From Thermodesulfobacteriota bacterium (GTDB lineage Bacteria > Desulfobacterota > Anaeroferrophillalia > Anaeroferrophillales > Tharpellaceae), in assembly GCA_024762675.1 (NCBI GenBank), contig JANTGZ010000001.1:14322-78321 (forward strand): DNA of 64,000 nucleotides. Reading direction: 5' to 3'. The notes beneath the pieces are model-generated. The model worked only from the letters and a program-made list of their open reading frames with translations, searched no databases and was not told where the DNA came from. The position numbers and the translations under genes are program-made. Below are positions 24,253-64,000 of this stretch, in pieces (within the stretch, counting starts at the first letter, position 1; each line of letters starts with the position of its first letter).

Positions 24253-24327
24253 CCACGAAATAATCAAAAAAATTTGATTGGTGTTTGTTGCAGTGTCTCG
24301 TGCTGTTTAAAACAGGTGGAGTTGTTC

Positions 24328-38562: not shown

Positions 38563-38608
38563 TTTATCTCCCTTAGATCAGGTTTTGTTGTTTTGATATT
38601 GAACTCTT

Positions 38609-40503: not shown

Positions 40504-40557
40504 CCGGTATGAGTTGAACCCATACCGGATGCTTTAGCTAGATTTGTTACGATTTCA

Positions 40558-41721: not shown

Positions 41722-41803
41722 CTTCTCCTTTTTTGTATCAGTTTGATTAAAATGTTTGAAGTAAATTCCTCAAACACAGTTGCAACTAAATTGTATTATT
41801 TAT

Positions 41804-44617: not shown

Positions 44618-45178
44618 ATGGATTTTACTATAAATAGCGACATCGAAGGCGTCTGTTTGATAAAACCCGATATATTCCGTGACCAGCGCGGTTTTTTCAT
44701 GGAGACCTTTAATCAGGAGAAATATGTTGATGGGGGGGTACCTTACAGCTTTGTGCAAGATAATATGTCATATTCAGGGCGGGGGACGGTGCGTGGCCTG
44801 CATTATCAGCTCAAACAGCCCCAGGGTAAACTGGTCTTTGTTCTGAAGGGGGAGATTTTTGATGTGGCGGTTGATATACGGCGCGGTTCGCCGACGTTCG
44901 GTCGCTGGATCGGTTATAATCTGTCAGCTGGTAACCGGTATCAGCTCTTTGTGCCTCCAGGCTTGGCGCATGGTTTTATGGTGCTCAGTGAGACCGCCGA
45001 AGTCTACTATAAATGTACCGATCTTTACTCTTGTGGAGATGAGTATGGCTTACTCTGGAGTGATCCGGAGATCGGGATAGAGTGGCCCGGCCAAGAGGTT
45101 ATCCTTTCGGAAAAAGATACCTCTTGGCCGACACTGGCCATGATCAATGAAGAGCATCTGCCGATTTGGTCAAATTAA
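44618..45178 (+). CDS. rfbC: dTDP-4-dehydrorhamnose 3,5-epimerase
   Basis: RBS AAGGAG. RmlC cupin motifs (FRDQRGFFMETF; RGLHYQ). Confidence 0.88.
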   Translation: MDFTINSDIEGVCLIKPDIFRDQRGFFMETFNQEKYVDGGVPYSFVQDNMSYSGRGTVRGLHYQLKQPQGKLVFVLKGEIFDVAVDIRRGSPTFGRWIGYNLSAGNRYQLFVPPGLAHGFMVLSETAEVYYKCTDLYSCGDEYGLLWSDPEIGIEWPGQEVILSEKDTSWPTLAMINEEHLPIWSN

Positions 45179-51349: not shown

Positions 51350-52126
51350 TTACAGATTCAGATTGTGTGCGGTGCTGTGGCACTCTCCGCAAGTCGGGAA
51401 TTTCTTCATGATGCCAGGTGAATGCGGGACGCCATGGCAATCCTGGCAGGCCGGAACCATTTTGTGCTTCTCTTTGTGGCAAGCGGCGCAGGATAGAGCA
51501 TGGTGTTTAGTCGTACTGGCAGTCAGCTGGCTTAAAGCTTCATCGTGACATGAGCCGCAGCCCTCCGATGGCGTGGCGTCGTTGTAGACCACGACCAGGG
51601 GTTTATGGGCCTGATGACACTGGGCACAATCAGCCTGAACCATGGTTTCGCCGTGGGGTTCGTGACAGCTTACGCAGAGTGGTATCTGAGCATGTTCCTG
51701 GTGACAGGCGGTACATGCCATGGTTGTATGGAAGCTTTTGTTTTCCTGGAGTAGGGTTCCCTGTTCCTGGTGGCAGGTCAGGCAGGCCCCGGTGATATCC
51801 TTGGCTAGCTGCAGAACCAGGGGCATATGAGGGTTGTTGTGGCAGCTTAGGCAGTTTTCCAGTTCATAATGGGATTTGCCACTGTGACAGCTGTCGCAGG
51901 TGGGGATGTTTTCGCGAACAGTGGGGGGGTGGCCTTCGTGGCACTCCATACAGGTCACTGCTGTTTTATGGGCTCCGCCCTGGGCTTCAATGTCGGCCGG
52001 AGGCTGGGTGTGGCACTTGATACAGTCATCATTGCTGAGTTCGGCTGCCAAGCTTAAAGATGTGAAAGTCAGGATCAGCCCAGCGCTGATTATAAGTGCC
52101 ACCAGGATTGTCGTCAGCCTTTTCAT
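51350..52126 (-). CDS. dodecaheme c-type cytochrome (c7-type polymer-like), periplasmic
   Basis: Signal peptide plus 12 CxxCH motifs counted in 258 aa, many as CxxCHxxH. Confidence 0.9.
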   Translation of the reverse strand: MKRLTTILVALIISAGLILTFTSLSLAAELSNDDCIKCHTQPPADIEAQGGAHKTAVTCMECHEGHPPTVRENIPTCDSCHSGKSHYELENCLSCHNNPHMPLVLQLAKDITGACLTCHQEQGTLLQENKSFHTTMACTACHQEHAQIPLCVSCHEPHGETMVQADCAQCHQAHKPLVVVYNDATPSEGCGSCHDEALSQLTASTTKHHALSCAACHKEKHKMVPACQDCHGVPHSPGIMKKFPTCGECHSTAHNLNL

Positions 52127-52493
52127 GTTTTTTTCTCCCCATTTTTAACAGTTTAAAATAATTGTTTTTATAAGAAATCCGCACTATTAAAAAATATCCC
52201 CAAACTCAACAGCAATGATTGTACCTTGATGATTCCATGTTTAAATTTACTCTGGAGATCCTTTTTCGAAAGTTTTATGTTTCAGTTGCAGCTATGCTTT
52301 TGCCCTCAATCTTATTTTTATAGACTCTCTTATTGGGCTTGGCATTCAAAACGATATGATGTATTAAATTACGCCACCACTCTATGCCATATGACCCATT
52401 CGGGTTAAATGCCGCAGTGCGTAGATGTTTGAGGACTATTATTTTATTGGCTTACGTGGCTTTCGCATAAATATTGCTAGGCTATAACGGTTT

Positions 52494-52613
52494 AGTGCCT
52501 TACAGAACATTTTCTTGTTTTTTTTAACAAGAAAATGTTCTTATAAGAGCACTTATTTGCGGGCCGATAGGGCTTGGTTGGATTGCGGGATTGTTCCCCG
52601 CATTAGATATTTC
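52494..52613. repeat. copy B of ~110-bp intergenic palindromic repeat element (REP/MITE-like)
   Basis: Contains the perfect 15-bp inverted repeat gaacattttcttgtt/aacaagaaaatgttc and the gcgggattgttccccgc hairpin. About 90% identical to 8986-9091. Confidence 0.7.
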
Positions 52614-52703
52614 ACATGAGTATGTTACGGTTGATTTTTGTTTCCCCTCTCTGCTACATTAATATATAGTTAAACAGTCAACTTTTCTGGAGGTAAGACG
52701 GGA

Positions 52704-54116
52704 ATGTCAAGTAAACGGGTTCTGGTTGTCGATGATGAACACCTGATACGCTGGTCTTTGGTCAGGGCCCTTGATGAAGCGGGATATCAAGTTGAGGCGG
52801 CAGAGACCGGAGCCGAAGCTCGCACTAAATATCGCGATTTCAGGCCTCATGCGGTGCTTCTTGATATATGTTTGCCTGATGCTGTTGGGACTGATCTCTT
52901 GAAGGAGTTCAAGGCCGATGACAAAGATTTAGTTGTCATTATGATCACAGCCCATTCCGATGCCGACTCTGCCGTCAGCGCTCTCAAGATTGGGGCTACT
53001 GATTATGTCGGTAAGCCTTTTGACCTCGAAGATGTCCTGCATTCAATTGAGCAGGCTCTTGAAAAACAGCGGCTACAGGATGAAAATGCCTATTTTCGTC
53101 GAGTCCTTAAAGATAAAATAGAACGTGACAACCTGGTTGGTAACTGTCCAAAAATGATCGAGGTCTATAAGCTTATCAAGATTGCGGCCGATGCCGATGC
53201 CAAAACTGTTCTGATTACCGGCGCCAGCGGTACCGGTAAAGAGTTGGTTGCCCGGGGAGTCCACATGCACAGCTCTCGTTCGAAAGAGCCTTTTATAGAT
53301 GTCAATTGTGCCGCCATTCCTGAATCACTGTTGGAAAATGAACTTTTTGGTCACGAACGAGGAGCCTATACAGATGCCTCCCAGAAGCAGAAAGGTATTT
53401 TTGAGATGGCCGGGGGAGGCACTGTTTTTCTTGATGAGATTGGAGATATGCCTATCGGTATGCAGGCCAAAGTTCTGAAAGTGATTGAAAATCGGAGTTA
53501 TCGGCGCCTCGGTGGCGATAACGATGTCCTTTCCGATGCCCGGATTGTGGCTGCGACCAATCAGGATCTAACAAGCATGGTCAAGGAAGGGAAATTTCGC
53601 GCAGATCTTTTTTACCGCTTGAATGTGATGCCCATCAAACTGCCTTCTCTGGTCGAGCGGAAAATGGATATTCCTCAACTGGCGGCCTATTTCATCAACC
53701 GTTTTAATGAAGAGTATGGTCGTAATATTGATGGGGTTGATGCTCAAACTATGCATCACCTTATGTCATATGACTGGCCCGGTAATGTTCGTGAGCTCCG
53801 TAATGCCATTGAACGGGCGATGATGCTCGAGCGTGGCAGCAGTCTCACTTCACAACATTTCAGCTCGGAAATTATTAATGCCGGCAAGTCTGCAGAGGGT
53901 AGCAGCGCTGATGAAGCTACGGCTGAAGATGATTGCTTCTCCTTTGGACAGGTAAAGCTGCCCAAAGATGGAATCTCTCTCGAAGAAGTTGAAAAACAGC
54001 TCATCCAGATGGCCTTGAAGCGTTGGAATGGTAATCAGACCAAGGCTGCCGAATGCCTGCGCATGAGTCGAGATACTTTGCGCTACCGGATGAAGAAATT
54101 CGGTCTTCCGAAATAG
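52704..54116 (+). CDS. sigma-54-dependent response regulator (NtrC family: receiver + AAA+ + HTH)
   Basis: Receiver (VLVVDDEHLIRW...D) plus sigma-54 activation domain (GASGTGKE; GAYTDA) plus C-terminal HTH. Confidence 0.9.
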   Translation: MSSKRVLVVDDEHLIRWSLVRALDEAGYQVEAAETGAEARTKYRDFRPHAVLLDICLPDAVGTDLLKEFKADDKDLVVIMITAHSDADSAVSALKIGATDYVGKPFDLEDVLHSIEQALEKQRLQDENAYFRRVLKDKIERDNLVGNCPKMIEVYKLIKIAADADAKTVLITGASGTGKELVARGVHMHSSRSKEPFIDVNCAAIPESLLENELFGHERGAYTDASQKQKGIFEMAGGGTVFLDEIGDMPIGMQAKVLKVIENRSYRRLGGDNDVLSDARIVAATNQDLTSMVKEGKFRADLFYRLNVMPIKLPSLVERKMDIPQLAAYFINRFNEEYGRNIDGVDAQTMHHLMSYDWPGNVRELRNAIERAMMLERGSSLTSQHFSSEIINAGKSAEGSSADEATAEDDCFSFGQVKLPKDGISLEEVEKQLIQMALKRWNGNQTKAAECLRMSRDTLRYRMKKFGLPK

Positions 54117-54214
54117 CTTTTCAGTTTATTGTTTTAATAGAAGCACCACAGAGAACACAGAGAAAAACTTAATTTTGCCTTTTTGGTTCCGGCCTTGCCG
54201 GATTGGGGATAGGT

Positions 54215-55573
54215 ATGAAAAATCATAAAATTATCTTTCATTTTGCGAGGCTGATCAGTTTTTTTGTTATTGTGATTTCGCCTCTTTTTTTTACGCAATC
54301 GATTTTGGCCGCCTGTCTGACCAGCTCCTGTCATCAGCAATTAAAAACTTTTGCCCAACTTCACGAGCCTTTGGTTGAAGGAGAGTGCCAGGCCTGTCAC
54401 GAGCGTGTGGTTGAAGAGCATCCCTTAAAAAAAGGGTCAAGTTTCAAATTGGTCGCTGATGGGGCAGCCTTGTGTCTTGAATGTCATGACGCTTTTGATC
54501 CAGCCTCCGGTAAGCTTCATGATGCTGTGGCTGAGGGTGAATGTTTGGCCTGTCATAACCCCCATGGCAGTAACGGTGACGGTCTGTTGCAGGCAGGTGG
54601 CGATCTTAAAGTGATCTGTTTCGAGTGCCATGACGGAACTCCTTTTGCACAGGAATTCGTCCATGGTCCGGCTGCAGCCGGGGTTTGTCTCGAGTGTCAT
54701 GATCCTCACCAATCAAATAATGAGGCGCTCCTACTGCATGATTCCAAATCTTTATGTCTACGTTGTCACGCTGACCTGGCTACAGGCCTGGAAGATGCAA
54801 CCGTCATTCATGCACCTCTAAATGATGAAGCTTGTAACTCCTGCCATGAAGTCCACGCTAGCCCTTTTGCTCATCTTCTTAAAGGGGATGGCCCCAAATT
54901 CTGTTTTTCCTGCCATAAAGAGCTGGCTGACAAATATAATAAGGCCGGTACTAAACACACTGCTCTCTATAAGGATGGTCGTTGTGGTAATTGTCACGCC
55001 CCCCATTTTTCAAGTTACGCAGCCTTGCTGCCGGAACGTGAAAGTGATGTCTGTCTGCGCTGTCATGGCAAGGATGATTTCCATCGTTCGAAGGCCTTGA
55101 AAAATATCCGTACCGAACTGACCGAAAAAGAGCATCTGCACGGCCCCTTGAACGACGGAGACTGCTCAGCTTGTCATGATCCGCACGGTTCCGACTTCTA
55201 TCGGCTCCTGGTTAATGACTATCCTGAAAGTTTTTACGCTCCCTATCGTAAAGGGACTTACGCTTTCTGCCTTAGCTGCCATGAAGAGAATCTTCTGCGT
55301 TTTCCGGAGACCTCCATCTATACCCTTTTTCGGGATGGCAAACGCAACCTGCACTACACCCATGTTGCTGACCCTCGCAAAGGCCGCAGTTGTCGGGCCT
55401 GTCATCAGGCTCATGCCAGTAACGGCCCCAAGTTGGTAAACGAGGATGGGGCTCCTTTTGGGAACTGGAAAATCCCTCTGCGACTGGTCCTGACCGAGAC
55501 CGGCGGCAGTTGTTCTCCCGGTTGTCATCGTCGCATGTCTTACGATCGTAAAAATCCTGTAATAAAAAAATAG
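54215..55573 (+). CDS. periplasmic multiheme c-type cytochrome (13 CxxCH + CxxxCH + Cx4CH)
   Basis: Start at ATG 54215 (the track's upstream TTG is unlikely). Signal peptide. 13 canonical CxxCH motifs. One CSPGCH near the C-terminus and one CLTSSCH near the N-terminus. Confidence 0.88.
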   Translation: MKNHKIIFHFARLISFFVIVISPLFFTQSILAACLTSSCHQQLKTFAQLHEPLVEGECQACHERVVEEHPLKKGSSFKLVADGAALCLECHDAFDPASGKLHDAVAEGECLACHNPHGSNGDGLLQAGGDLKVICFECHDGTPFAQEFVHGPAAAGVCLECHDPHQSNNEALLLHDSKSLCLRCHADLATGLEDATVIHAPLNDEACNSCHEVHASPFAHLLKGDGPKFCFSCHKELADKYNKAGTKHTALYKDGRCGNCHAPHFSSYAALLPERESDVCLRCHGKDDFHRSKALKNIRTELTEKEHLHGPLNDGDCSACHDPHGSDFYRLLVNDYPESFYAPYRKGTYAFCLSCHEENLLRFPETSIYTLFRDGKRNLHYTHVADPRKGRSCRACHQAHASNGPKLVNEDGAPFGNWKIPLRLVLTETGGSCSPGCHRRMSYDRKNPVIKK

Positions 55574-55900
55574 TATTAAACAGTTCAACGTTCAAAGTTA
55601 AAAGTTCAGGGTTAAGGTCAAAAGCAAGTTTAAGGGCAAAAGCAGTGCAAAAGTCAAACTCGGAGCTGCTTTGGCCTTTTTTTCTCATCGAGAAAACTTA
55701 AACATTGAACTTTGAACTGCCTGAGCGATATCCCCCTTGTGCCTGACCGTTATGGTGGGGTAAGTGCCCCACTTGGGTGTCGACCAGTTCTCAGGGGCTT
55801 TTTGCCGGCTTTTTATGTTTCTCAAGCGGTCTCTTTAAACTGTTGAATATATTTGCTTTTTTAAAGTTGTAGTGCTCTTTTTCACTGACTTTATGAATTT

Positions 55901-55916
55901 TGGCACAATATATGCT
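55901..55916 (+). promoter_or_regulatory. candidate sigma-54 (-24/-12) promoter TGGCAC-aatat-ATGCT
   Basis: Perfect -24 TGGCAC with correct spacing to a GC-containing -12. Lies ~160 nt upstream of the tetraheme cytochrome start. Palindrome GTGGGGtaagtGCCCCAC at ~55758-55775 upstream could be an activator site. Confidence 0.45.
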
Positions 55917-56078
55917 CTCTGTCATTATAGATTTGCTTAGATCAGCATTTTAAGTTGTTTTAGGTCTTTTGGGGAAGATCTTGATTTTTGAAATGTTGCG
56001 ATAAAAAGACTGCACGTACAACTGGAAAAGAGAGTGGGAGCTTAACAACAAATAAATATGCCTGAGAGGAATATAATT

Positions 56079-56759
56079 ATGAAGAGATATATGATAATTT
56101 TCTTGTGTGTTGCCGCCCTGGCTTTTACTGCCACGCAGGTTTTAGCTGGTGCCGCACCCGGAACCGGGATTGTCGGTTCTAAACATGATATGAATGTTGT
56201 TTCTAATCCGGATAGCCAGAATCGTGTCTGTGCTTTCTGCCATACCCCGCATCACGCCCTTGATGATGCTTCGGCCGATTATCTGCCTTTGTGGTCGCAT
56301 GAACTTACCAGTCTAACCTACACTGACTATAGCTCAATCACATTTGATGGTGCCGGATTCCCGGCTGGTGATACCTTGACCGGTCCTTCCCGTCTCTGTA
56401 TGAGCTGTCATGATGGTGCGGTCGCGGTTGACCAGCATTATGGCGGCATTGGTACTGACGTCCGTTCCGGTGACAGCTGGGGTGAAATCGGCGTCGGCGC
56501 CGGTGGTGACTTGAGCAATGACCATCCGATCGGTTTTGATTACACCGCGATTGCCGGTGTGGTTGATGATGAGATTCGTTTGGCTACAACTCCGGTTGCT
56601 AATCCCAGTGTAAACACGATTACCGAACTGTTGTGGGATGACCAGTGGATGACTTGTGCCTCCTGTCATGATGTTCATAACACTGATGCCAACGAAGACT
56701 ATTTTCTCTATGGTCCGCAGGCTAACTCCGATTTCTGCCTGATCTGTCACGACAAATAA
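56079..56759 (+). CDS. tetraheme c-type cytochrome, secreted
   Basis: Start at ATG 56079 (MKRYMIIFLCVAALAFTATQVLA signal). Four CxxCH motifs (CAFCH, CMSCH, CASCH, CLICH). Confidence 0.85.
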   Translation: MKRYMIIFLCVAALAFTATQVLAGAAPGTGIVGSKHDMNVVSNPDSQNRVCAFCHTPHHALDDASADYLPLWSHELTSLTYTDYSSITFDGAGFPAGDTLTGPSRLCMSCHDGAVAVDQHYGGIGTDVRSGDSWGEIGVGAGGDLSNDHPIGFDYTAIAGVVDDEIRLATTPVANPSVNTITELLWDDQWMTCASCHDVHNTDANEDYFLYGPQANSDFCLICHDK

Positions 56760-56790
56760 TAACCTTTTAAATTAGTCCAGTCACGATAAA

Positions 56791-56824
56791 GGCTGCCGGT
56801 AGTATCTGCCGGCAGCCTTTTTTA
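56791..56824 (+). terminator. Rho-independent terminator (ggctgccgg-loop-ccggcagcc followed by a T-run)
   Basis: Perfect 9-bp GC-rich stem followed by T6, directly after the tetraheme cytochrome stop. Confidence 0.8.
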
Positions 56825-56878
56825 GGTTGCGTAAAAACTTGAGTAAATGGTATAGTTATTAAAATAACAAAACCGATT

Positions 56879-58003
56879 ATGGAGTTGTCGATGCCTGTAG
56901 ATGTTGTCGTAAACCGTCCTGGTTCGATTAGATTGGCCTTTTTGCTGGTTCTTATCTTCTTCCTCTTGTTGCTTTTTTCTGCCTGTACCGGCCCTGAGGT
57001 GGTTCGTCCTCAAGGTTCGGTTTTTTTCCCGCCGGTTCCCAACCCCCCCCGGGTTCAATACCTGACCCGGATCTCCAGTTCAACCGATGTTGATGGTAAA
57101 AAACTGGGCGGGCTTTCAATTATTGCCGTCGGAGATAGCCGGGCTGAAAAACCCAAACCTATCATTAAGCCCTATGGAATTACCGTGCGTGATGGTAAAC
57201 TATATGTCTGTGATACTTCACCCGGGCGTCTGATTGTCATCGATCCGGCCCGTAAGACTTTTGAATTTTTGAAAGGTAACTACAGTTTCGGTAAACTGAA
57301 AAAACCGATTAATTCAGCCTTAGACAGTGAAGGCAACCTCTATGTTGCCGATACCATGCGCAAAGAGGTGCTGGTTTATGGTCCGAGTGGCAGCTTTCTG
57401 CGCGCCTTTGGTAAAGGTCTCGAGATGAAACCGGTCGATGTTGCTATCGATGGTGACTATCTTTATGTTCTTGATCTCAAGAATCATGATATCAAAATAC
57501 TTGATCGGAAAAGTGGAAAGCTATTGGAAACTATTGGTAATGATTCTGATAATAAACACCTTTTGTCGATGCCCATCAGCCTTGATACCGATCCCAAAGG
57601 CAGCATCTATGTCTCCAATATGACTTCCGGTAAAATTATCAACTTGGATCGTGATGGTCACCTGCTGGGTGAATTCGGCAAACTTGGTGATGGTTTTGGC
57701 CAGTTCGGTCGGCCCAAAGGTTTGACGGTGGATGACCAGGGGCGTATCTACGTCGTTGATGCGGCCCATCAGAATGTTCAGATTTTTAATAAAGATGGCC
57801 GGCTGTTGATGTTTTTCGGTGATCCCGGGCTTCCTTTTGGCTCCCTCAATTTGCCGGCTGGGATTGCAGTTACCTCTGAAGGGATTGATCTTTTTAAAGA
57901 ATATATCGATCCCGCTTTTCAAGTTGAGCAGCTGATTTTCGTTACCAGTCAGTTCGGTCCGGCCAAGATCTCGGTTTATGGACTCGGAGAACTGAAAAAC
58001 TGA
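56879..58003 (+). CDS. NHL-repeat (six-bladed beta-propeller) lipoprotein
   Basis: Signal plus lipobox (LLFSAC). Repeated NHL motifs (GNLYVADT; GSIYVSNM; GRIYVVDAAHQNVQIFNKDGRLL). Confidence 0.8.
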   Translation: MELSMPVDVVVNRPGSIRLAFLLVLIFFLLLLFSACTGPEVVRPQGSVFFPPVPNPPRVQYLTRISSSTDVDGKKLGGLSIIAVGDSRAEKPKPIIKPYGITVRDGKLYVCDTSPGRLIVIDPARKTFEFLKGNYSFGKLKKPINSALDSEGNLYVADTMRKEVLVYGPSGSFLRAFGKGLEMKPVDVAIDGDYLYVLDLKNHDIKILDRKSGKLLETIGNDSDNKHLLSMPISLDTDPKGSIYVSNMTSGKIINLDRDGHLLGEFGKLGDGFGQFGRPKGLTVDDQGRIYVVDAAHQNVQIFNKDGRLLMFFGDPGLPFGSLNLPAGIAVTSEGIDLFKEYIDPAFQVEQLIFVTSQFGPAKISVYGLGELKN

Positions 58004-58040
58004 TTACTGCGGAATATTTTACAGTGATTTTTTAATAAAT

Positions 58041-58093
58041 ACCACAGAGAGCACAGAGGATGGTTTTCTCTGAGACCTCTGTGCTCTCTGTGG
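58041..58093 (+). terminator. perfect 19-bp inverted repeat hairpin (accacagagagcacagagg / cctctgtgctctctgtggt), terminator/REP-like
   Basis: Read from the sequence. Located directly after the NHL gene. The half-site motif accacagaga(g/a)cacagag recurs at ~54143. Confidence 0.6.
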
Positions 58094-58123
58094 TGAAAAA
58101 TATGTGGTCTAAAAACCATTTTT

Positions 58124-58729
58124 ATGGTCAATTTATTTAAAAATTGTCGAATTATTTTGTTGATCGGCTCTCTGGCCGTGGTTTTCTTTCTTGCCGGTTG
58201 TGATGCCACTGCCCGTTATAAGGTCTTAACGACGATATTTGACGGGGTGCCAAGCCCGATTCCGCCGGAAAAAGTCCTTGAGGAGTATTATGCTAAACGG
58301 CTTCAGGCCGAACGCGATGCAGCTGCCGGCAAAGTTTCAGCCGACGCTTCGACCGGGCTTTTGCATGTTTCCAAACATCTTCCCTATACGCAAAAAAAAT
58401 GTAAGGATTGTCACGATTTCAGCACCGCAGTCGGCCTTATCCGGCCGCCTAGAGAGCTCTGTTTTGTATGTCATCGCAAGTTTCGTGACCATATTCGTGA
58501 ACCCTTTGTTCATGGTCCGGTTGCAGTTGGTGACTGTTCTGCCTGTCATCTGCCGCACTCTTCTGAAAACACCTCTCTGCTGGAGCTTGATCGGAATAAA
58601 ATCTGCGATAAATGTCATCATGAAGAGCGCCTTGCGGTCGAGATGCATGATAAAATTATGACCCACGGTATGGCCTGTGTTGATTGTCATGACGCCCATT
58701 ACGGCCAAGCCCGCTACTTTCTCAAATGA
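58124..58729 (+). CDS. pentaheme c-type cytochrome lipoprotein
   Basis: Signal plus lipobox (FFLAGC). Five CxxCH motifs (CKDCH, CFVCH, CSACH, CDKCH, CVDCH). Confidence 0.85.
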   Translation: MVNLFKNCRIILLIGSLAVVFFLAGCDATARYKVLTTIFDGVPSPIPPEKVLEEYYAKRLQAERDAAAGKVSADASTGLLHVSKHLPYTQKKCKDCHDFSTAVGLIRPPRELCFVCHRKFRDHIREPFVHGPVAVGDCSACHLPHSSENTSLLELDRNKICDKCHHEERLAVEMHDKIMTHGMACVDCHDAHYGQARYFLK

Positions 58730-58752
58730 TTATCTATTCAGGAAGAGTGTAG

Positions 58753-60735
58753 ATGCGGCCGACCCTGGTTATTTTATTCTGCCTGTTAACGGCTCAACTC
58801 ATGCTGGCTGGTCAATCGCAGGCTCGGGCTCTTTTTATGATCCGGGATTTTCGTAACTGGCTTGAACTTGAATATGAGTATGAAGGTTCCAGTTCCGATA
58901 GTGCCGGCAGCAATCAGGATCTGACGGAACAGCAGTTATGGGAGACCTACCATTTTGAGATGGCTTACGCTATCTATAGCCCACGTTGGCTTAACGGCCA
59001 TTTTGAGGTCGATCTTGGCTTTCTGCAGGAGTGGTATGACGGCACCAGTGACGGTTCCGGCTCCGATAACGACTTTGTTCTCGGTTACCGTCTGGATGGT
59101 ATTATCTTGGATCGTAAATCTTTTCCCACAACGTTTTTTGCCGAGTCGGAGAGTACTCGGGCCGACCGCCGTTTCGCCCGTAATTACGATCTGCAAACTG
59201 AAAACTATGGTATCGCTACAACCTACAAAAATCGCTTTGTACCGGTTCACTTAAGCTATTTTTCCAACCGCAGTGAAACTGACGGGCTCGAACTTGATCG
59301 CGAGATTACAACCGAGACCTTTTCGGCAGATCTCTCCCACCAGACTGATGATGGCTTCAGCCTTAGTGAAATAAACTATTTCTATACCGACGACAAAACT
59401 TCATTTTCCGGTTCTCAGCCCTCAGATAAAAATAATGTCGAGGAGTATTTTCTCCGTAATTCACTGACCTGGGGAGAGCATCTCAAGCGCAGCTACTTTA
59501 TCTCCAGCTATCGTTATCGTGAGGAAGAGGGCAGTAATCCGATCAAATCTACGGACTGGTTTGAAACTATTGACTGGCGACCGGGACTTGCCCTGCGCCT
59601 GGGACTCGAATATCAGTTCAGCAAAGATGAAACTGAAACTTTAAATCGTAAAGATAACCGCTATCGGGGTTGGATCGAGCATCATCTTTATGAGAGCCTT
59701 ACAACCTCCGCCCGGGCCAGTAGCCGTAACCTCGAATTTGACGGCGGTAGCGAAGATGAGAACGGTTTTGTTTTAAGTCTTTCCTACCGTAAAAAATTAC
59801 CGGCTGATTCCTATTTTACCATGGGCTATTCCTACGGATATGAAGAGACCGAGCGGGACTTGGATGATAACCTGTTCTTCGTCGTCAATGAGGAGATGAT
59901 TGTCGATCTCTTTGAGAGAAACCTCTTAAATAATCTTGATGCTGTAGCTGAAACCATTGTTGTTTACAATGAGGATCGACTCATTACCTATGTTGAGGGA
60001 GCCGATTACACAATTGAACAGGTTGGTCGCGAAACCGAGATTATTATCCCCTCCGGCAGCCTTATCAATGAAGGAGACAAACTTTCGCTCGACTATGAAT
60101 ACCTGGTTAACCCTGACATCGATTTTTCCACTACCGTCCATCAGGCCAGTACAACTTTAACCCTTTTTGACCGTCATTACCGAATCTATGCCAACTATGT
60201 CAATTCAAAACAGAAATTACTCTCTTCGGCCGATGATCCGGATCTTTATGACAGTCTCTACAATCTTGAGACCTGGACTGTCGGGGCTGAAGGCGAGTGG
60301 AACTATGTGACTTGCGGCCTCGAGTACACAGATTACAACTCAACCACCGATATTCGCCAATATCTCGAAGGTTTCATTAATTATAGACGCTATTTCAGGC
60401 GTAATTTTATCTTTTTTTACCTGCGTGATCGCATAACCAGCCATGATGATTTGGATAATGGTACTGACAGTAATGGTGGCAGTGAAAATGTTCTGACCAC
60501 CGGTTTTCAGTATAAGCGAAAATTCCCGCTTGGGGCGATCGGTGAAGTCAACCTCGATTATTTAAACCAGAGCGGTCGTAGTAACGACCGTCAGGAACTC
60601 GATCTCGAAATAGCCTATCAGCTTCGGGTTGGGAAGCTTGTCTTTGAAGCCAGCATTGAAGAGGAGTGGGCCTGGACCGATAATCGCGATGAACGTAATG
60701 ATAAGGTTATGTTCAGAATCCGCCGCTACTTTTGA
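58753..60735 (+). CDS. putative large outer-membrane beta-barrel protein (porin-like; candidate conduit component)
   Basis: Cleavable signal (AGQSQA). 660 aa rich in Y/D/N/G/T with amphipathic alternating stretches (GFVLSLSYR; YFTMGYSYGYE; LEIAYQLRV). C-terminal ...RIRRYF ends in Phe, the OMP signature. No Cys pairs or enzymatic motifs. Confidence 0.5.
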   Translation: MRPTLVILFCLLTAQLMLAGQSQARALFMIRDFRNWLELEYEYEGSSSDSAGSNQDLTEQQLWETYHFEMAYAIYSPRWLNGHFEVDLGFLQEWYDGTSDGSGSDNDFVLGYRLDGIILDRKSFPTTFFAESESTRADRRFARNYDLQTENYGIATTYKNRFVPVHLSYFSNRSETDGLELDREITTETFSADLSHQTDDGFSLSEINYFYTDDKTSFSGSQPSDKNNVEEYFLRNSLTWGEHLKRSYFISSYRYREEEGSNPIKSTDWFETIDWRPGLALRLGLEYQFSKDETETLNRKDNRYRGWIEHHLYESLTTSARASSRNLEFDGGSEDENGFVLSLSYRKKLPADSYFTMGYSYGYEETERDLDDNLFFVVNEEMIVDLFERNLLNNLDAVAETIVVYNEDRLITYVEGADYTIEQVGRETEIIIPSGSLINEGDKLSLDYEYLVNPDIDFSTTVHQASTTLTLFDRHYRIYANYVNSKQKLLSSADDPDLYDSLYNLETWTVGAEGEWNYVTCGLEYTDYNSTTDIRQYLEGFINYRRYFRRNFIFFYLRDRITSHDDLDNGTDSNGGSENVLTTGFQYKRKFPLGAIGEVNLDYLNQSGRSNDRQELDLEIAYQLRVGKLVFEASIEEEWAWTDNRDERNDKVMFRIRRYF

Positions 60736-61301
60736 TGGGCAGAGGTGAAATAGTGGAAAAGCAACTCTTTACAGACTCTTACCAACATAGTTTTTTCCTT
60801 AAAGTCAGTTGTGCCCTGCTCCTGACCTTGAGCCTTTGCGGTCTGGGTCTCTATCTTTATCTTAACCGACCTTTTGGTGGTGACTTCCTGCTGGCTATTG
60901 CCGAACTTGATCGTCTGCGAAAGAGTATTGTCTGGGCTGTGGGGGTCTCAGTTACGGTTCAGCTTGTGATCTTTGCCCTGCTCCTCTATCTGGCCTCACT
61001 TTTCTGGACCCATAAGGTGGCCGGTCCGCTCTATCGCTTGAAAATGACTTTTTTGCGTCTTGCCGATGGTGACTGGACGCCGATGTATCAGGTGCGGAAA
61101 AATGACCAGCTCAAAGAGATTCCCGGTTTGCTCAATCGTGGTCTCAAAGCCGTGCGTTCAATTGACGATGAGATAAATAGTGAGCTTTTTGAAGTTGAGG
61201 AAAAATTGCAGAAATTTCACGTCGGTGAAAGTGATTGCGAAGTCATAACTGAGGCTCGGAGTCGCCTGATTCGGTTGCTTGATAGGCACTGGCCAATGTA
61301 A
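60732..61301 (+). CDS. small membrane protein: 2 TM helices + HAMP-like domain, no output domain
   Basis: Two hydrophobic helices followed by HKVAGPLYRLKMTFLRLADGDW...NDQLKEI, which fits HAMP heptads. Paralogous to the 62196 gene. Confidence 0.55.
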   Translation: MMGRGEIVEKQLFTDSYQHSFFLKVSCALLLTLSLCGLGLYLYLNRPFGGDFLLAIAELDRLRKSIVWAVGVSVTVQLVIFALLLYLASLFWTHKVAGPLYRLKMTFLRLADGDWTPMYQVRKNDQLKEIPGLLNRGLKAVRSIDDEINSELFEVEEKLQKFHVGESDCEVITEARSRLIRLLDRHWPM

Positions 61302-61386
61302 TTGATACAGGGTTAACCTTCACTCTGAGTGGTCAAAATTAAAAAATTAAAATAAACGTGGTCCGAACTTTGCTCTATTGTGATCT

Positions 61387-62220
61387 ATGAATAACCGACT
61401 TTCGCTATTTTTCTATTTATTGATATTTGCTCTGGCCTTGGGCCTTGCCGGTGTTCTTATATCGGACAGTGGTAATCCTCACAGCATGAAAACTGACTGC
61501 GCAGATTGTCATCTGCGAGCTCCGGCACAGGATGAGGCCGGCACCAATCTTTTTGTTGCCGATATCGAAACCCTCTGTTTGCGTTGTCATACCGAGGTCA
61601 AGGTGACCATGTCCCATCCTGTAGGAGTTAAGCCGACTTTTAAACTCCCGCTCGATATGCCGCTTGACTGGAAAGGTGAGATGACCTGCACAACCTGTCA
61701 TCGTATGCATGGTGATGACGATAACCGCTTCTTTTTTAATAATAAATTTTTGCGGCGTAACTCCACCGGCAAGGCCTTTTGTCTTGAATGTCACCAGAAT
61801 AACTTTCTCTCCAACCGTAGCATGGGCCATAGCGTTGCTCAGAATGCGGCGCACTACACTCCGAGAGATTCTTTTGCAGGAGAGGCTAAAATAGATGAGT
61901 CCTCAGCTTCCTGCTTGACCTGTCACGACGGCTCTCTGGCTAAGGATGAGGGCAGTGCCATAATCGAAAGAACGGCCGGTATCTGGCGCCATGGAGGTCA
62001 AAGTAATCGTAGCAGCCATCCTTTGGGCGTAAGTTACAGCAGGGCCCATGCGAGAAAACCTCACGCCTATCGACCGATGGCTGAATTGCCGAGGACAGTC
62101 CGGCTCCCGGGTGGGAAAGTGGAGTGTGTCTCATGTCATAATCTATATGCAAAAGATGAATGTCTGTTGGCCGTCTCAAATGAAAGAAGTAGACTATGTC
62201 TGACCTGTCATCGAAAATAA
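61387..62220 (+). CDS. heptaheme c-type cytochrome with N-terminal membrane anchor/signal
   Basis: N-terminal hydrophobic segment. Seven CxxCH motifs (CADCH, CLRCH, CTTCH, CLECH, CLTCH, CVSCH, CLTCH). Confidence 0.85.
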   Translation: MNNRLSLFFYLLIFALALGLAGVLISDSGNPHSMKTDCADCHLRAPAQDEAGTNLFVADIETLCLRCHTEVKVTMSHPVGVKPTFKLPLDMPLDWKGEMTCTTCHRMHGDDDNRFFFNNKFLRRNSTGKAFCLECHQNNFLSNRSMGHSVAQNAAHYTPRDSFAGEAKIDESSASCLTCHDGSLAKDEGSAIIERTAGIWRHGGQSNRSSHPLGVSYSRAHARKPHAYRPMAELPRTVRLPGGKVECVSCHNLYAKDECLLAVSNERSRLCLTCHRK

Positions 62221-62807
62221 AACACCCCTATAAACGGAGCCGCTATCTGGTTGATCGGGCTCTACAGTTGCGTTTTATGCTCCAGTTGGCGGGCAGCGGG
62301 TTGCTGCTGGTGGTGATGGCTGGTGTCAGCATGTTTCTATGGGGGCGCTACCTGCTTGAAAAAGAGCTCTACAGCCCCCATTTAAGCCATGCCGGTTCCG
62401 GTGAATTGCTTTTGCCTTTATTGTTAGGGCTAAATTTGGTCTTCGCGGCTCTGATCGTTGTCGTGGTGGTTCTCTTGGGCCGCCGTCATCTTAGGAAAAT
62501 AACCGGCTCTTTACTGCGTCTTGAAGACAACCTTGAGCAGATGGGGCAGGGAGAGGTTCCGGCAGAACTAGTTTTGCGTAATGATGACCCTTTACAATCG
62601 GTAGGGGAGACTTTTAATTCCTTTTCGTCAGGAGTTAACCAACGTCGTGATCTGGTTCGCATAGAGATTCGTAGTGCAGTTACTGCTCTACAACATGCAC
62701 TTGAAACCGGTTCCTCAGGTACAGCTGTCGTAAGCGATCTGGATAACGCCAAAACAGCCCTGGAAAAAGCCCGTAAAACTCTTAATTATAGACAAGTCGG
62801 ACCATAA
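62196..62807 (+). CDS. small membrane protein: 2 TM helices + HAMP domain, no output domain (paralogue of 60732-61301)
   Basis: 2 TM followed by ITGSLLRLEDNLEQMGQGEVPAELVLRNDDPLQSVGETFNSF, a near-consensus HAMP. Overlaps the 3' end of the heptaheme gene by 25 nt. Confidence 0.55.
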   Translation: MSDLSSKIKHPYKRSRYLVDRALQLRFMLQLAGSGLLLVVMAGVSMFLWGRYLLEKELYSPHLSHAGSGELLLPLLLGLNLVFAALIVVVVVLLGRRHLRKITGSLLRLEDNLEQMGQGEVPAELVLRNDDPLQSVGETFNSFSSGVNQRRDLVRIEIRSAVTALQHALETGSSGTAVVSDLDNAKTALEKARKTLNYRQVGP

Positions 62808-62864
62808 CCTTAAACTCCAAACCCCGAACTTTAAACTTTGAACTGTCCCAAATAGAGTAATGTT

Positions 62865-63905
62865 TTGTTGAAAAAGTTTAATTTATTTCTTGTTTTATCC
62901 TTCCTCTTTCTGGCGACTTGCTTTCTGGCGGCCTGTGTTGAGTCGTCAAAGCCCTCGATTGAGACTGAGGCGGTACTGGAGAAACCGGTTTGGCCGGCTT
63001 CACCGGCACCACCTCGTATTGCCTGGCAGGGTGAAATTAAAGATTTTCGCGATTTCCGCAGACAGGAAAGTTTCTGGCAGCGTCTCGCCGGTCTCGTTGT
63101 CGGCCAGCGCCAGAGTGGACTTGTCAAGCCTTACGGGATCTATGCCGATGATCACGATCATATTTTTGTCGTTGATACCGGGGCCCGCCGGGTCTATTTT
63201 CTTAACACCAAAGACGGCAGCTATAAAACAATACCCGAAGAAGATGAAAACCCTTTTCTTTCACCGATTGATATCACTGGAGATGGTGCGGACACTCTTT
63301 TTATCTCTGATTCAAAAAATGCCAGGCTCTTTCGTTATACTCTTAATGATGGCCGTTTAGTTGAGTTTCCGACGGTCGACCTGCAGCGACCTACCGGGAT
63401 TGTCTACTGCCTTAAAGAGCGGCTTCTTTATGTTGCCGATACGCTGGCCCACCAGGTCGTTGCCTTAGAGTACAATGGCCGTGAACGTTTTCGTTTCGGC
63501 GAGCGCGGGGTTGGTCCCGGCCAGTTTAATTTCCCGACGGCTGTGGCTATAAGTGAGTGTGGCATGCTGGTGGTTACCGATGCCCTTAACGGTCGGATCC
63601 AGATATTTGCCACCGACGGCACCTTTGAGCTTGAAGTTGGTCGACCAGGTGATACCTCCGGAACTTTTGCCAAGCCCAAAGGTGTGGCTTTAGACAGTGA
63701 CTGTAACATCTATGTTTGTGATGCCCTGTTTGACGCAGTCCAGGTTTTTGATAAAGGCGGGCGCTTGCTGTTGACTTTTGGTGACAGCGGTTCCCGGCCC
63801 GGTCAGTTCTGGATGCCGACCGGAATCTTCGTTGACGGTAAGGACAATATCTACGTCGCCGACAGCTATAACCAGCGTATTCAGATCTTTCGTTATTTAA
63901 AGTAG
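62865..63905 (+). CDS. NHL-repeat lipoprotein (paralogue of 56879-58003)
   Basis: TTG start. Signal plus lipobox (FLAAC). NHL repeats (HIFVVDTGARRVYF; RLLYVADTLAHQVV; NIYVCDALFDAVQVF; NIYVADSYNQRIQIF). Confidence 0.75.
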   Translation: MLKKFNLFLVLSFLFLATCFLAACVESSKPSIETEAVLEKPVWPASPAPPRIAWQGEIKDFRDFRRQESFWQRLAGLVVGQRQSGLVKPYGIYADDHDHIFVVDTGARRVYFLNTKDGSYKTIPEEDENPFLSPIDITGDGADTLFISDSKNARLFRYTLNDGRLVEFPTVDLQRPTGIVYCLKERLLYVADTLAHQVVALEYNGRERFRFGERGVGPGQFNFPTAVAISECGMLVVTDALNGRIQIFATDGTFELEVGRPGDTSGTFAKPKGVALDSDCNIYVCDALFDAVQVFDKGGRLLLTFGDSGSRPGQFWMPTGIFVDGKDNIYVADSYNQRIQIFRYLK

Positions 63906-64000
63906 ATGCATTCGTAAAAAGTTTGAGATCACTTTGAAACGTCATTCCGGCGAAAGCCGGAATCCAGTAAATTCAACGACTTCTGGATACCGGATCAAGT

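What the first reader, a model, noticed from the sequence alone, without database searches (positions are those of the whole stretch)
51350..63905. Sigma-54-controlled gene cluster of five multiheme cytochromes, two NHL-propeller lipoproteins, two HAMP-only membrane proteins and a 660-aa putative OM beta-barrel: candidate novel extracellular electron-transfer conduit
Twelve kb contains cytochromes with 12, ~14, 4, 5 and 7 hemes. One is a lipoprotein. One has an N-terminal membrane anchor. The rest carry signal peptides. Interleaved with them are a 660-aa protein with outer-membrane beta-barrel signatures, two paralogous NHL-repeat lipoproteins and two paralogous 2TM+HAMP proteins. Known porin-cytochrome conduits (Geobacter Pcc/Ext; Shewanella Mtr) combine a periplasmic cytochrome, a beta-barrel and an outer lipoprotein cytochrome. 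Here the composition differs: small 4-7 heme units, NHL propellers and HAMP adaptors. A NtrC-type response regulator sits inside the cluster and a GAF/PAS histidine kinase flanks it. This suggests a dedicated regulated respiratory module that matches no described cluster I can recall.
Basis: partly seen in the sequence, partly recalled or inferred. Interest (0 to 1): 0.85.

Follow-up and report, generated by a model that had tools for sequence, protein, structure and literature searches.

The report
OmcE-type cytochrome nanowire gene cluster
This 12.5-kb stretch is a real gene cluster for moving electrons out of the cell, but it is a further example of the OmcE "cytochrome nanowire" cluster already known from Geobacter relatives, here with three extra genes.

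Summary
Window 51350-63905 carries five multiheme cytochromes (12, 13+2 variant, 4, 5 and 7 heme sites). It also carries two NHL-propeller lipoproteins, two small 2TM/HAMP-like proteins, a 660-aa predicted outer-membrane beta-barrel and an NtrC-type sigma-54 activator. No other ORF in the 64 kb has two or more CxxCH motifs.

The claim that it matches no described cluster does not hold. The 4-heme protein is a full-length homologue of the Geobacter OmcE nanowire subunit (PDB 7TFS, 34% identity, all four CxxCH and four distal His aligned). The core order (13-15-heme cytochrome, OmcE-like subunit, propeller, 5-heme lipoprotein, barrel, propeller) recurs gene for gene in Geomonas, Malonomonas rubra and Desulfuromonas. 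In the latter two the sigma-54 activator and the divergent 12-heme cytochrome are also present. This matches the "omcE gene cluster" described in a 2025 preprint. The barrel family has about 2,000 sequence clusters.

Two features are lineage-specific. One is a HAMP1/7-heme OmcE-derived cytochrome/HAMP2 insert, absent from close relatives. The other is the host, which is close to Candidatus Tharpella, a group with no known terminal reductase.

Verdict: real and functionally coherent, a new member of a known kind with a minor variant. Interest is moderate.

The parts
46589..49162 (-). FG-GAP-repeat secreted protein (857 aa). It is a conserved neighbour of the kinase; whether it belongs to the system is uncertain.
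   Evidence: Pfam FG-GAP_2 scores 306 bits over 7 repeats. The protein has a signal peptide. It sits next to the kinase in L001, L007 and L008.
49362..51281 (-). Soluble PAS histidine kinase, the presumed partner of the sigma-54 activator.
   Evidence: Pfam finds PAS, HisKA and HATPase_c but no GAF. No hydrophobic segment is present. It is conserved at 63-79% identity in L001, L004, L007 and L008.
51350..52126 (-). cytA: 12-heme periplasmic cytochrome (258 aa), transcribed divergently.
   Evidence: It has 12 CxxCH motifs and c3/c7-type Pfam hits. Orthologues are 50% identical in Malonomonas and Desulfuromonas at the same position.
52211..52226 (-). Sigma-54-type -24/-12 promoter element upstream of cytA (AGGTACAATCATTGCT).
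   Evidence: It lies 84 nt upstream of the cytA start. The element GG-N10-GC with ACAATCATTGCT is kept in L001, L004, L006, L007 and L008 while the flanks differ.
52704..54116 (+). NtrC-type response regulator and sigma-54 activator.
   Evidence: Pfam finds Response_reg, Sigma54_activat (222 bits), AAA_lid_14 and HTH_8. The GAFTGA loop reads GAYTDA in all six orthologues. It is 56-64% identical to the regulator at the same position in Malonomonas and Desulfuromonas.
54203..55573 (+). cytB: 13-15-heme periplasmic cytochrome resembling MtrA/DmsE.
   Evidence: It has 13 CxxCH plus one CX4CH and one CX3CH. Seven paired-CXXCH units are found. It matches MtrA (6R2Q_A) at E 1.8e-11 and DmsE-family TIGR03508 at 136 bits, below the cut-off of 192. 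It is 44-54% identical to the first gene of the Geomonas, Malonomonas and Desulfuromonas clusters.
55901..55916 (+). Sigma-54-type -24/-12 promoter element upstream of cytC (TGGCACAATATATGCT).
   Evidence: It has one mismatch to TGGCAY-N5-TTGCW. Matching elements lie 140-180 nt upstream of cytC orthologues in L001, L004, L006, L007, L008 and L010. Perfect-consensus sites are present in L011, L013 and L014.
56058..56759 (+). cytC: tetraheme OmcE-family cytochrome, the predicted nanowire subunit.
   Evidence: phmmer against PDB gives 7TFS (G. sulfurreducens OmcE filament) at E 5.9e-23 over the full length, and 9YUQ at 8.4e-20. It is 34% identical to OmcE over 234 aa. Four CxxCH plus H43, H65, H156 and H207 align with OmcE.
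56788..56820 (+). Strong intrinsic terminator directly after cytC.
   Evidence: A 15-bp stem with 9 GC pairs and a 3-nt loop, followed by TTTTAGG.
56879..58003 (+). NHL1: NHL beta-propeller lipoprotein.
   Evidence: Pfam NHL scores 75 bits. The lipobox is FSAC. It is 46-49% identical to the first propeller of the Geomonas, Malonomonas and Desulfuromonas clusters.
58124..58729 (+). cytD: pentaheme lipoprotein cytochrome immediately upstream of the barrel.
   Evidence: It has 5 CxxCH and the lipobox LAGC followed by Asp. It matches MtrA at E 7.6e-8. Orthologues are 42-51% identical.
58753..60735 (+). 660-aa outer-membrane beta-barrel with about 28-30 strands and an inserted small beta domain at roughly residues 384-451.
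60732..61301 (+). HAMP1: small 2TM inner-membrane protein with a HAMP-like cytoplasmic segment. Its start overlaps the barrel stop codon.
   Evidence: Two hydrophobic segments are present. It is related to HAMP2 at profile level (hhalign 95.5%). The invariant motif is WTHK-AGPL-R. It is absent from L007, L008, L011, L013 and L014.
61387..62220 (+). cytE: 7-heme cytochrome with a long hydrophobic N-terminus. Its C-terminal half derives from OmcE.
   Evidence: It has 7 CxxCH. Residues 173-277 match 9YUQ_N at E 3.6e-6 and OmcE at 1e-5. The alignment shows an extra block carrying 3 heme sites, loss of the N-terminal KHD His, and VH changed to LY.
62196..62807 (+). HAMP2: small 2TM protein with a divergent HAMP domain. 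It overlaps cytE by 25 nt.
   Evidence: Pfam HAMP scores 14.4 bits in the window copy, and 27.6 and 24 bits in the L004 and L009 orthologues. An invariant LYSPH lies in the short loop between the two hydrophobic segments. The family has only 30 members in the 5.8-billion-sequence database.
62865..63905 (+). NHL2: second NHL beta-propeller lipoprotein.
   Evidence: Pfam NHL scores 87.5 bits. The lipobox is LAAC. It is 39-50% identical to the second propeller in Geomonas, Malonomonas and Desulfuromonas.

Best explanation
This is an OmcE-type cytochrome-nanowire and porin-cytochrome cluster for extracellular electron transfer.

**Proposed mechanism.**
1. A soluble PAS histidine kinase and an NtrC-type activator switch on sigma-54 promoters in front of cytA and cytC.
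2. cytC, a tetraheme OmcE homologue, is exported, receives its hemes in the periplasm, and is passed through or mounted on the 660-aa outer-membrane barrel. The two propeller lipoproteins assist. Outside the cell cytC polymerises into a heme wire.
3. cytB (13-15 hemes, MtrA-like) and the pentaheme lipoprotein cytD form the electrical link through or at the barrel.
4. cytA (12 hemes) shuttles or stores electrons in the periplasm.
5. Electrons flow between the periplasm and minerals, electrodes or partner cells. The direction is not determined.

**Shown here.** Homology of each part; the barrel fold prediction; the lipoboxes; gene-for-gene synteny with clusters in cultured Desulfuromonadales and Geobacteraceae; and conserved -24/-12 promoter elements.

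**Inferred.** Polymerisation of cytC, the role of the barrel (anchor, secretion pore or cytochrome sheath), the roles of the propellers, and the order of electron transfer.

**Lineage-specific addition.** The HAMP1-cytE-HAMP2 insert is an optional module. My best guess is an inner-membrane-anchored, OmcE-derived cytochrome with two sensor-like partners.
For: **cytC is an OmcE homologue.**
- It matches OmcE 7TFS at E 5.9e-23 end to end and 9YUQ at 8.4e-20. Identity is 34% over 234 aa.
- Four CxxCH and four distal His align with OmcE.

**Core composition matches the described omcE cluster.** It has two multiheme cytochromes, two propeller lipoproteins, an OmcE subunit and a large barrel, as stated in bioRxiv 10.1101/2025.10.22.684050.

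**One-to-one orthologues in the same order.**
- Geomonas nitrogeniifigens: cytB 44%, cytC 47%, NHL1 46%, cytD 42%, barrel 27% over the full length (E 1e-54), NHL2 39%.
- Malonomonas rubra DSM 5091 and a Desulfuromonas sp.: the same core, plus cytA at 50% and the sigma-54 regulator at 56-64%.

**MtrA-like cytochromes.** cytB and cytD match MtrA 6R2Q_A at E 1.8e-11 and 7.6e-8.

**Regulation.**
- Sigma-54 elements are conserved upstream of cytA and cytC in six relatives and are at perfect consensus in three Desulfuromonadia loci.
- cytC has its own promoter and a strong terminator, as expected for an abundant structural subunit.

**Downstream genes in relatives.** The operon continues with an OmcE-domain 11-12-heme cytochrome, an octaheme HAO-family cytochrome and 800-1300-aa PKD cytochromes.
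Against: - No experiment exists for this protein set. At 34% identity to OmcE, filament formation is not guaranteed.
- The Geomonas orthologue matches 7TFS (E 4.5e-19) more weakly than cytC does. The compared clusters are therefore OmcE-like paralogous clusters, not proven orthologues of G. sulfurreducens omcE itself.
- I could not compare the barrel and propellers directly with those next to GSU0618 or DSOUD_2954.
- Deletions in the related NHL/cytochrome clusters of D. ferrophilus gave no Fe(III)-oxide phenotype.
- cytD has Asp at position +2 of the lipoprotein. In E. coli that would keep it in the inner membrane.
- The activator has GAYTDA instead of GAFTGA.
- The window ends 95 nt after NHL2, and a hairpin repeat sits where relatives have the next cytochrome gene. 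The outer cytochromes are therefore unverified in this genome.
Confidence: 0.72

Rival explanations
1. It is a classical porin-cytochrome conduit only, like Geobacter Ext/Pcc or Shewanella Mtr. cytB sits inside the barrel, cytD is the outer lipoprotein cytochrome, and cytC is a monomeric extracellular or periplasmic tetraheme that never polymerises. The propellers are structural accessories.
For: - cytB and cytD are MtrA-like.
- A pentaheme lipoprotein directly upstream of a barrel recalls ExtC/ExtF/ExtK. That comparison rests on my own knowledge of Jimenez Otero et al. 2018, which is cited.
- The barrel resembles MtrB as much as any other barrel.
- Only 34% identity to OmcE.
Against: - cytC keeps all eight heme ligands of OmcE over its full length.
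- It has its own sigma-54 promoter and a strong terminator.
- It is accompanied by the same barrel-plus-two-propeller set that the 2025 preprint ties to filament-forming OmcE in two species.
- The two readings are not mutually exclusive. The conduit function is part of the best explanation.
Confidence: 0.18
2. The barrel and propellers are purely a secretion and assembly machine, analogous to a chaperone-usher system, for OmcE-family subunits. They carry no electrons. Electron input to the wire comes from other conduits encoded elsewhere.
For: - The preprint suggests the barrel functions in secretion or as an anchor, and cites Shen et al. 2025 for a porin-like assembly pathway for OmcS.
- About 28-30 strands is larger than the 26 strands known for MtrB (strand number of MtrB from my own knowledge; strand count of this barrel).
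Against: Two MtrA-like multiheme cytochromes (cytB, cytD) are invariably encoded with the barrel in every locus examined, and cytD is separated from the barrel gene by only 23 nt. A pure secretion device would not need them.
Confidence: 0.07
3. It is an ordinary periplasmic respiratory enzyme locus (nitrite, hydroxylamine, sulfite or tetrathionate reduction), with the multiheme proteins acting as electron donors to an octaheme enzyme.
For: - Relatives carry an HAO-family octaheme two genes downstream (4QO5 at E 1e-25).
- Speth et al. 2022 proposed an HAO-family protein as terminal reductase in Tharpellota.
Against: - No catalytic cytochrome such as NrfA, Otr, MccA or HAO lies inside the window region.
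- An outer-membrane barrel, three lipoproteins, an OmcE homologue and giant PKD-domain cytochromes are not features of periplasmic reductase loci.
- The Geomonas and Malonomonas loci, as far as fetched, show no HAO-like gene yet keep the core.
Confidence: 0.03

Closest known systems
omcE nanowire gene cluster of Desulfuromonadia (G. sulfurreducens OmcE, PDB 7TFS; Desulfuromonas soudanensis OmcE bundles; bioRxiv 10.1101/2025.10.22.684050)
   Same: - A tetraheme OmcE-family subunit, two multiheme cytochromes, two beta-propeller lipoproteins and a large beta-barrel.
- The same gene order as in the Geomonas, Malonomonas and Desulfuromonas loci fetched here.
- A sigma-54 promoter in front of the subunit gene.
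   Different: - The host is outside Desulfuromonadia. The closest named relative is Candidatus Tharpella aukensis.
- There is no glycosylation gene block in the window.
- It has an extra HAMP1-cytE-HAMP2 insert between the barrel and the second propeller.
- cytC is only 34% identical to OmcE.
- Direct homology to the barrel and propellers next to GSU0618 or DSOUD_2954 was not tested.
Desulfovibrio ferrophilus IS5 clusters DFE_0448-0451 and DFE_0461-0465 (Deng et al. 2018, PMC5815863; PMC9769857)
   Same: [quoted passage not shown]
- Homologues are reported as widespread in sediment sulfur-respiring bacteria.
   Different: - No porin or barrel gene was recognised in D. ferrophilus.
- Its genes are split over two clusters.
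- Sequence homology to the window proteins could not be tested here.
Shewanella MtrCAB porin-cytochrome complex (PDB 6R2Q)
   Same: - A multiheme periplasmic cytochrome related to MtrA (cytB E 1.8e-11, cytD E 7.6e-8).
- A large outer-membrane barrel and a lipoprotein cytochrome, encoded together.
   Different: - The barrel is not in the MtrB/PioB family by sequence (no Pfam, NCBIfam or PDB sequence match).
- The barrel is predicted to have more strands.
- There is no MtrC/OmcA-type decaheme.
- cytB has 13-15 hemes rather than 10.
Geobacter Ext/Pcc conduits (ExtABCD, ExtEFG, ExtHIJKL, OmaB-OmbB-OmcB)
   Same: The architecture is a periplasmic multiheme cytochrome, an outer-membrane barrel and a small lipoprotein cytochrome. 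The pentaheme lipoproteins ExtC/F/K are recalled from my own knowledge.
   Different: - Ext and Pcc clusters have no propeller lipoproteins and no OmcE subunit.
- Homology of the barrels was not tested.
OetABI conduit of syntrophic sulfate reducers (Murali et al. 2023, PMC10553843)
   Same: A porin plus periplasmic and extracellular cytochromes, clustered with nanowire-type cytochromes (OmcS/OmcX-like), in Desulfobacterota from seep and vent sediments.
   Different: - NHL and propeller proteins are not mentioned anywhere in that paper.
- The wire types there are OmcS/OmcX, not OmcE.
- Homology was not tested.

Membership tests
OmcE-type nanowire gene cluster | Tetraheme subunit homologous to OmcE over its full length, with four CxxCH and the four additional His ligands. 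| tested here: met
   7TFS at E 5.9e-23, aligning query 20-233 with chain 8-232. Identity 34%. H43, H65, H156 and H207 plus four CxxCH are aligned.
OmcE-type nanowire gene cluster | A large outer-membrane beta-barrel gene in the same cluster. | tested here: met
OmcE-type nanowire gene cluster | Two beta-propeller lipoproteins and two further multiheme cytochromes. | tested here: met
   NHL1 and NHL2 have lipoboxes. cytB and cytD are present. Each has a one-to-one orthologue in the reference loci.
OmcE-type nanowire gene cluster | The subunit polymerises into an extracellular heme filament. | not testable with these tools
   This needs cryo-EM or filament preparations.
OmcE-type nanowire gene cluster | Barrel and propellers orthologous to those flanking G. 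sulfurreducens omcE (GSU0618) or D. soudanensis DSOUD_2954. | not tested
   Those sequences could not be fetched. The Geomonas OmcE-like protein used as a bridge matches 7TFS more weakly than cytC does.
MtrCAB / MtrB-PioB porin-cytochrome | Barrel belongs to the MtrB/PioB family. | tested here: not met
   No Pfam hit at E <= 0.01. The only NCBIfam hit at E <= 0.1 is an unrelated phage tail-tube model. The profile against PDB sequences finds nothing at E <= 10, so 6R2Q_B is not matched.
MtrCAB / MtrB-PioB porin-cytochrome | Periplasmic decaheme of the MtrA/DmsE family. | tested here: not met
   cytB scores 136 bits against TIGR03508, below the cut-off of 192, and has 13-15 heme sites. It is related but not a member.
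NtrC-type sigma-54 enhancer-binding protein | Receiver + sigma-54 interaction AAA+ domain + Fis-type HTH. | tested here: met
   Pfam scores of 95.6, 222 and 57.7 bits.
NtrC-type sigma-54 enhancer-binding protein | GAFTGA loop that contacts sigma-54. | tested here: inconclusive
   The loop reads GAYTDA and is invariant in six orthologues. Conserved -24/-12 promoters nearby argue that it is functional.
HAMP domain proteins (PF00672) | Match to the HAMP profile above the gathering score, following a second transmembrane helix. | tested here: inconclusive
   Window HAMP2 scores 14.4 bits against a cut-off of 25. Orthologues score 27.6 and 24 bits. HAMP1 shows only a 12.7-bit hit in one orthologue. 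The 2TM topology is supported.
D. ferrophilus DFE_0448-0451 / DFE_0461-0465 cluster | Sequence homology of the cytochromes and NHL proteins to the DFE proteins. | not tested
The resemblance rests on heme counts and NHL content reported.

The most novel reading that the evidence does not exclude
The window comes from a relative of Candidatus Tharpella. For this candidate phylum, genome analysis found no sulfate reduction and no recognisable terminal reductase, and proposed an HAO-family octaheme as the reductase. The most novel reading is that extracellular electron transfer through this OmcE-type wire and barrel apparatus is the missing terminal electron sink of these bacteria. In close relatives an HAO-family octaheme is embedded in the same operon. 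On this reading the lineage-specific HAMP1-cytE-HAMP2 insert is a new inner-membrane redox-sensing module, or a base or cap for the wire. cytE is an OmcE derivative that has lost the N-terminal His and one distal His.
Probability: 0.3. Interest if true: 0.65.

Novelty: new member of a known kind. Interest (0 to 1): 0.4.

Why it matters
- It extends the OmcE nanowire machinery, with its barrel, two propellers and sigma-54 control, from Geobacter relatives to a deep-branching vent and sediment lineage near Candidatus Tharpella. This supports the view that the apparatus is widespread: the barrel family alone has about 2,000 sequence clusters.
- It offers a concrete, testable candidate for the unknown terminal electron acceptor pathway of Tharpellota.
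- It points to cultured organisms, Malonomonas rubra DSM 5091 and Geomonas, in which the conserved cluster and its sigma-54 regulation can be tested genetically.
- It flags OmcE-derived multi-domain cytochromes (cytE, and the 548-aa protein in relatives) as candidates for the filament base or cap that the field is looking for.

Tried and rejected
1. **Paralogous cluster at 9-13.5 kb.** Gene lengths of 201, 277 and 344 aa suggested one. These genes are mreBCD and pbp2.
2. **Riboswitch or leader RNA in the cluster.** No Rfam match passes in 51.2-64 kb.
3. **Shared activator-binding site.** A 12-mer (AGGGCAAAAGCA) occurs in both sigma-54 intergenic regions, but it is not conserved at the matching positions in relatives.
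4. **Sigma-54 element upstream of NHL1.** It is present in L001, L004 and L010 (AGGCATG-AAATTGCT) but absent from the window.
5. **Sequence beyond position 64000.** Exact-protein look-ups returned only a 7-kb Logan contig that also breaks at the end of NHL2.
6. **Naming barrel-family members.** Cluster look-up gave no informative names.
7. **AFDB fold search.** The library was unavailable.
8. **Desulfuromonas versatilis OmcE-like locus.** Not on record.
9. **Supplement of Deng et al. 2018.** Not held. The OmcE structure paper PMC9357133 is also not held.
10. **Paralogy of HAMP1 and HAMP2 by BLASTP.** No hit. Only the profile comparison links them.

Full report
**1. Observation**

| Gene | Window coordinates | Length | Heme sites |
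|---|---|---|---|
| cytA | 51350-52126 (-) | 258 aa | 12 CxxCH |
| cytB | 54203-55573 | 456 aa | 13 CxxCH plus CLTSSCH and CSPGCH |
| cytC | 56058-56759 | 233 aa | 4 CxxCH |
| cytD | 58124-58729 | 201 aa | 5 CxxCH |
| cytE | 61387-62220 | 277 aa | 7 CxxCH |

- No other ORF in the 64-kb window has two or more CxxCH motifs, so the concentration is far beyond chance.
- NHL1 and NHL2 match the NHL repeat (75 and 87 bits). They carry lipoboxes, as does cytD.
- The regulator at 52704-54116 is a complete NtrC-type sigma-54 activator.
- The flanking kinase has PAS, HisKA and HATPase_c. No GAF domain was detected and it has no membrane segment.
- The rest of the window is ordinary chromosome: radA, rodA, pbp2, mreBCD, peptidoglycan recycling genes and a TRAP transporter with its own sigma-54 activator.

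**2. The 660-aa protein**

- It matches no Pfam or NCBIfam family, and its profile matches no solved-structure sequence.
- With 16 homologues, AlphaFold2 gives a confident all-beta model (pLDDT 83.6). The model has about 29 long strands and a small inserted beta domain near residues 384-451.
- With its signal peptide and C-terminal ...RRYF, it is an outer-membrane barrel, not a soluble protein.
- The word-indexed search found only 17 relatives. A full HMM scan found 2,032 representative clusters, of which 445 have E <= 1e-30. Nearly all of the 150 listed are 650-690 aa. It is therefore a large, unnamed family.

**3. What the cluster is**

*The OmcE link.* The decisive lead came from comparing the cytochromes with solved structures.
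- cytC is a full-length homologue of the G. sulfurreducens OmcE nanowire subunit (7TFS, E 5.9e-23; 34% identity over 234 aa).
- It also matches a second filament entry, 9YUQ.
- All four CxxCH motifs and the four extra His (KHD, TPH, NDHP, VH) align.
- cytB and cytD resemble MtrA of the Mtr complex.

*The published cluster.* A 2025 preprint on Desulfuromonas soudanensis OmcE bundles states that the minimal omcE clusters always encode two multiheme cytochromes, two beta-propeller lipoproteins, the OmcE subunit and a large beta-barrel. It also reports such clusters in five phyla. That is exactly the core found here.

*Direct test against fetched loci.* I fetched loci around OmcE-like genes of named organisms. 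Percentages are identity to the window protein.

| Window gene | Geomonas nitrogeniifigens | Malonomonas rubra DSM 5091 | Desulfuromonas sp. |
|---|---|---|---|
| cytA | absent | 50% | 50% |
| sigma-54 activator | absent | 56% | 64% |
| cytB | 44% | 54% | 51% |
| cytC | 47% | 48% | 46% |
| NHL1 | 46% | 49% | 48% |
| cytD | 42% | 51% | 44% |
| Barrel | 27%, full length, E 1e-54 | 28% | 25% |
| NHL2 | 39% | 46% | 50% |

Gene order is the same in all three loci. In Malonomonas and Desulfuromonas, cytA is divergently transcribed, as in the window.

**4. Relatives and extent**

- Ten metagenomic loci carry the same arrangement.
- One is a contig of the type MAG of Candidatus Tharpella aukensis, at 69-89% identity across eight genes.
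- In relatives the operon continues after NHL2 with:
  - a 548-640-aa cytochrome whose N-terminal domain is OmcE-like (7TFS at E 5.6e-26);
  - a 410-aa HAO-family octaheme (4QO5 at E 1e-25);
  - 800-1300-aa PKD-domain cytochromes.
- The window stops 95 nt after NHL2. A hairpin repeat lies there instead of the next gene start.
- An independent assembly of the same sequence also breaks at that point. The downstream part in this genome is therefore unknown.

**5. Regulation**

- A sigma-54-type element, TGGCACAATATATGCT, lies about 140 nt upstream of cytC.
- A second element, AGGTACAATCATTGCT, lies 84 nt upstream of cytA on the minus strand.
- Both recur at the matching positions in six relatives while the flanking sequence diverges.
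- Geomonas, Malonomonas and Desulfuromonas have perfect TGGCAC-N5-TTGCT sites upstream of their OmcE-like genes.
- cytC is followed by a 15-bp-stem terminator. This suits a highly expressed structural subunit with limited read-through into the assembly genes.
- The activator's GAFTGA loop is GAYTDA in all orthologues.
- No riboswitch was found in the cluster.

**6. The lineage-specific part**

- HAMP1, cytE and HAMP2 sit between the barrel and NHL2, and their reading frames overlap neighbouring genes.
- HAMP1 is seen in seven of the fifteen loci compared, counting the window and a second assembly of the same sequence. The whole trio is seen in six of them; the Ca. T. aukensis contig ends within HAMP1.
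- It is missing from close relatives (L007 and L008, with NHL2 at about 80% identity), from L002/L003, and from the three Desulfuromonadia loci.
- Both small proteins have two membrane segments. HAMP2 orthologues reach the Pfam HAMP threshold, but the window copy does not.
- The two families are related only at profile level.
- The HAMP2 family has just 30 members in the large database.
- cytE ends like OmcE and aligns with OmcE's last three heme sites. It carries an extra block with three heme sites. It lacks the N-terminal KHD His and has LY in place of VH.
- The function of the trio is unresolved. Two guesses are a membrane-anchored redox sensor or relay, and a terminal subunit of the wire. 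Neither was tested.

**7. Mechanism and rivals**

The best-supported reading is an OmcE-type wire assembled at, and electrically fed through, a barrel/cytochrome complex under sigma-54 control.

Three rivals were considered:
- A pure porin-cytochrome conduit with no filament remains possible at 34% identity to OmcE.
- A pure secretion role for the barrel fits poorly with the invariant pairing with two MtrA-like cytochromes.
- A periplasmic reductase locus is not supported.

The Mtr family label is rejected for the barrel. For cytB the similarity is real but below the family threshold.

**8. Novelty**

- The core is a known kind.
- What is new is the host lineage and the optional trio.
- Speth et al. 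2022 found no sulfate reduction and no standard terminal reductase in Tharpellota. They proposed an HAO-family octaheme instead and did not discuss extracellular electron transfer.
- The present cluster is found on the Ca. T. aukensis type MAG. In close relatives it is linked to an HAO-family octaheme. This suggests a testable alternative: these bacteria may respire extracellular acceptors or partner cells.
- That step is inference. The taxonomic placement of the window itself rests only on identity within this cluster.

Noticed in passing
window 18281-18368 (+): A c-di-GMP-I-GGC riboswitch aptamer (RF03167, 59.4 bits, just above the gathering score of 59). It lies upstream of a 237-aa ORF (18455-19168) with no Pfam family.
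   Followed up: no
window 63943-63967 and on to 63987: A hairpin repeat (CATTCCGGCGAAAGCCGGAATCCAG, with an ATCCAG/CTGGAT outer pair) lies directly after the NHL2 stop. In relatives the next cytochrome gene starts within about 10 nt at this point. It is unique within the window. An independent Logan assembly of the same sequence breaks here.
   Followed up: partly
L005 6806-8044; L014 18247-19404; L001 16895-18127; L008 14742-15980: An HAO-family octaheme cytochrome (about 385-412 aa, 4QO5 at E 1e-25) is embedded in the extended OmcE-type operon of relatives, including a Desulfuromonas sp. It may be the HAO-family protein that Speth et al. 2022 proposed as the Tharpellota terminal reductase. 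Its placement inside an extracellular electron transfer operon was not noted there.
   Followed up: partly
L005 5125-6771; L011 15738-16841; L013 16044-17705: The gene after the second propeller is a larger cytochrome (7-12 hemes) whose N-terminal domain matches OmcE at least as well as cytC does (5.6e-26 for the L005 protein). It is a candidate base or tip subunit of the wire. The 2025 preprint states that no tip-like candidate (OmcE-like with more exposed hemes) appears in the OmcE operons.
   Followed up: partly
window 54308-54328 (cytB residues 36-42): The Cys of an apparent lipobox (LAAC) in cytB is the first Cys of a CX4CH motif (CLTSSCH). The Geomonas orthologue has CISTACH at the same place without a lipobox. 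It is therefore more likely an unusual heme site than a lipidation site.
   Followed up: partly
window 43074-44492 (+) with 37285-42703 (-): A second PAS/sigma-54 activator lies next to a TRAP transporter (DctPQM), a LarA-like lactate racemase, an SDR and an FAD-linked oxidase. This looks like an unrelated sigma-54-controlled catabolic locus.
   Followed up: no
window 45175-46545 (-): A metallo-beta-lactamase-fold protein fused to two rhodanese domains, the architecture of persulfide dioxygenase-rhodanese fusions. It sits just outside the cluster.
   Followed up: no
L002 15330-16492: An IS element (HTH_Tnp_1 + rve) splits the distant version of the cluster. It separates the OmcE-like gene from the barrel operon. 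That locus ends with ResB, echoing the resB/ccsB neighbourhood described for omcE clusters.
   Followed up: no
window 23332-25905 (+): A protein with a weak T2SS-G (pseudopilin) match is followed by a 543-aa LamG-domain protein. No link to the cytochrome cluster was established.
   Followed up: no
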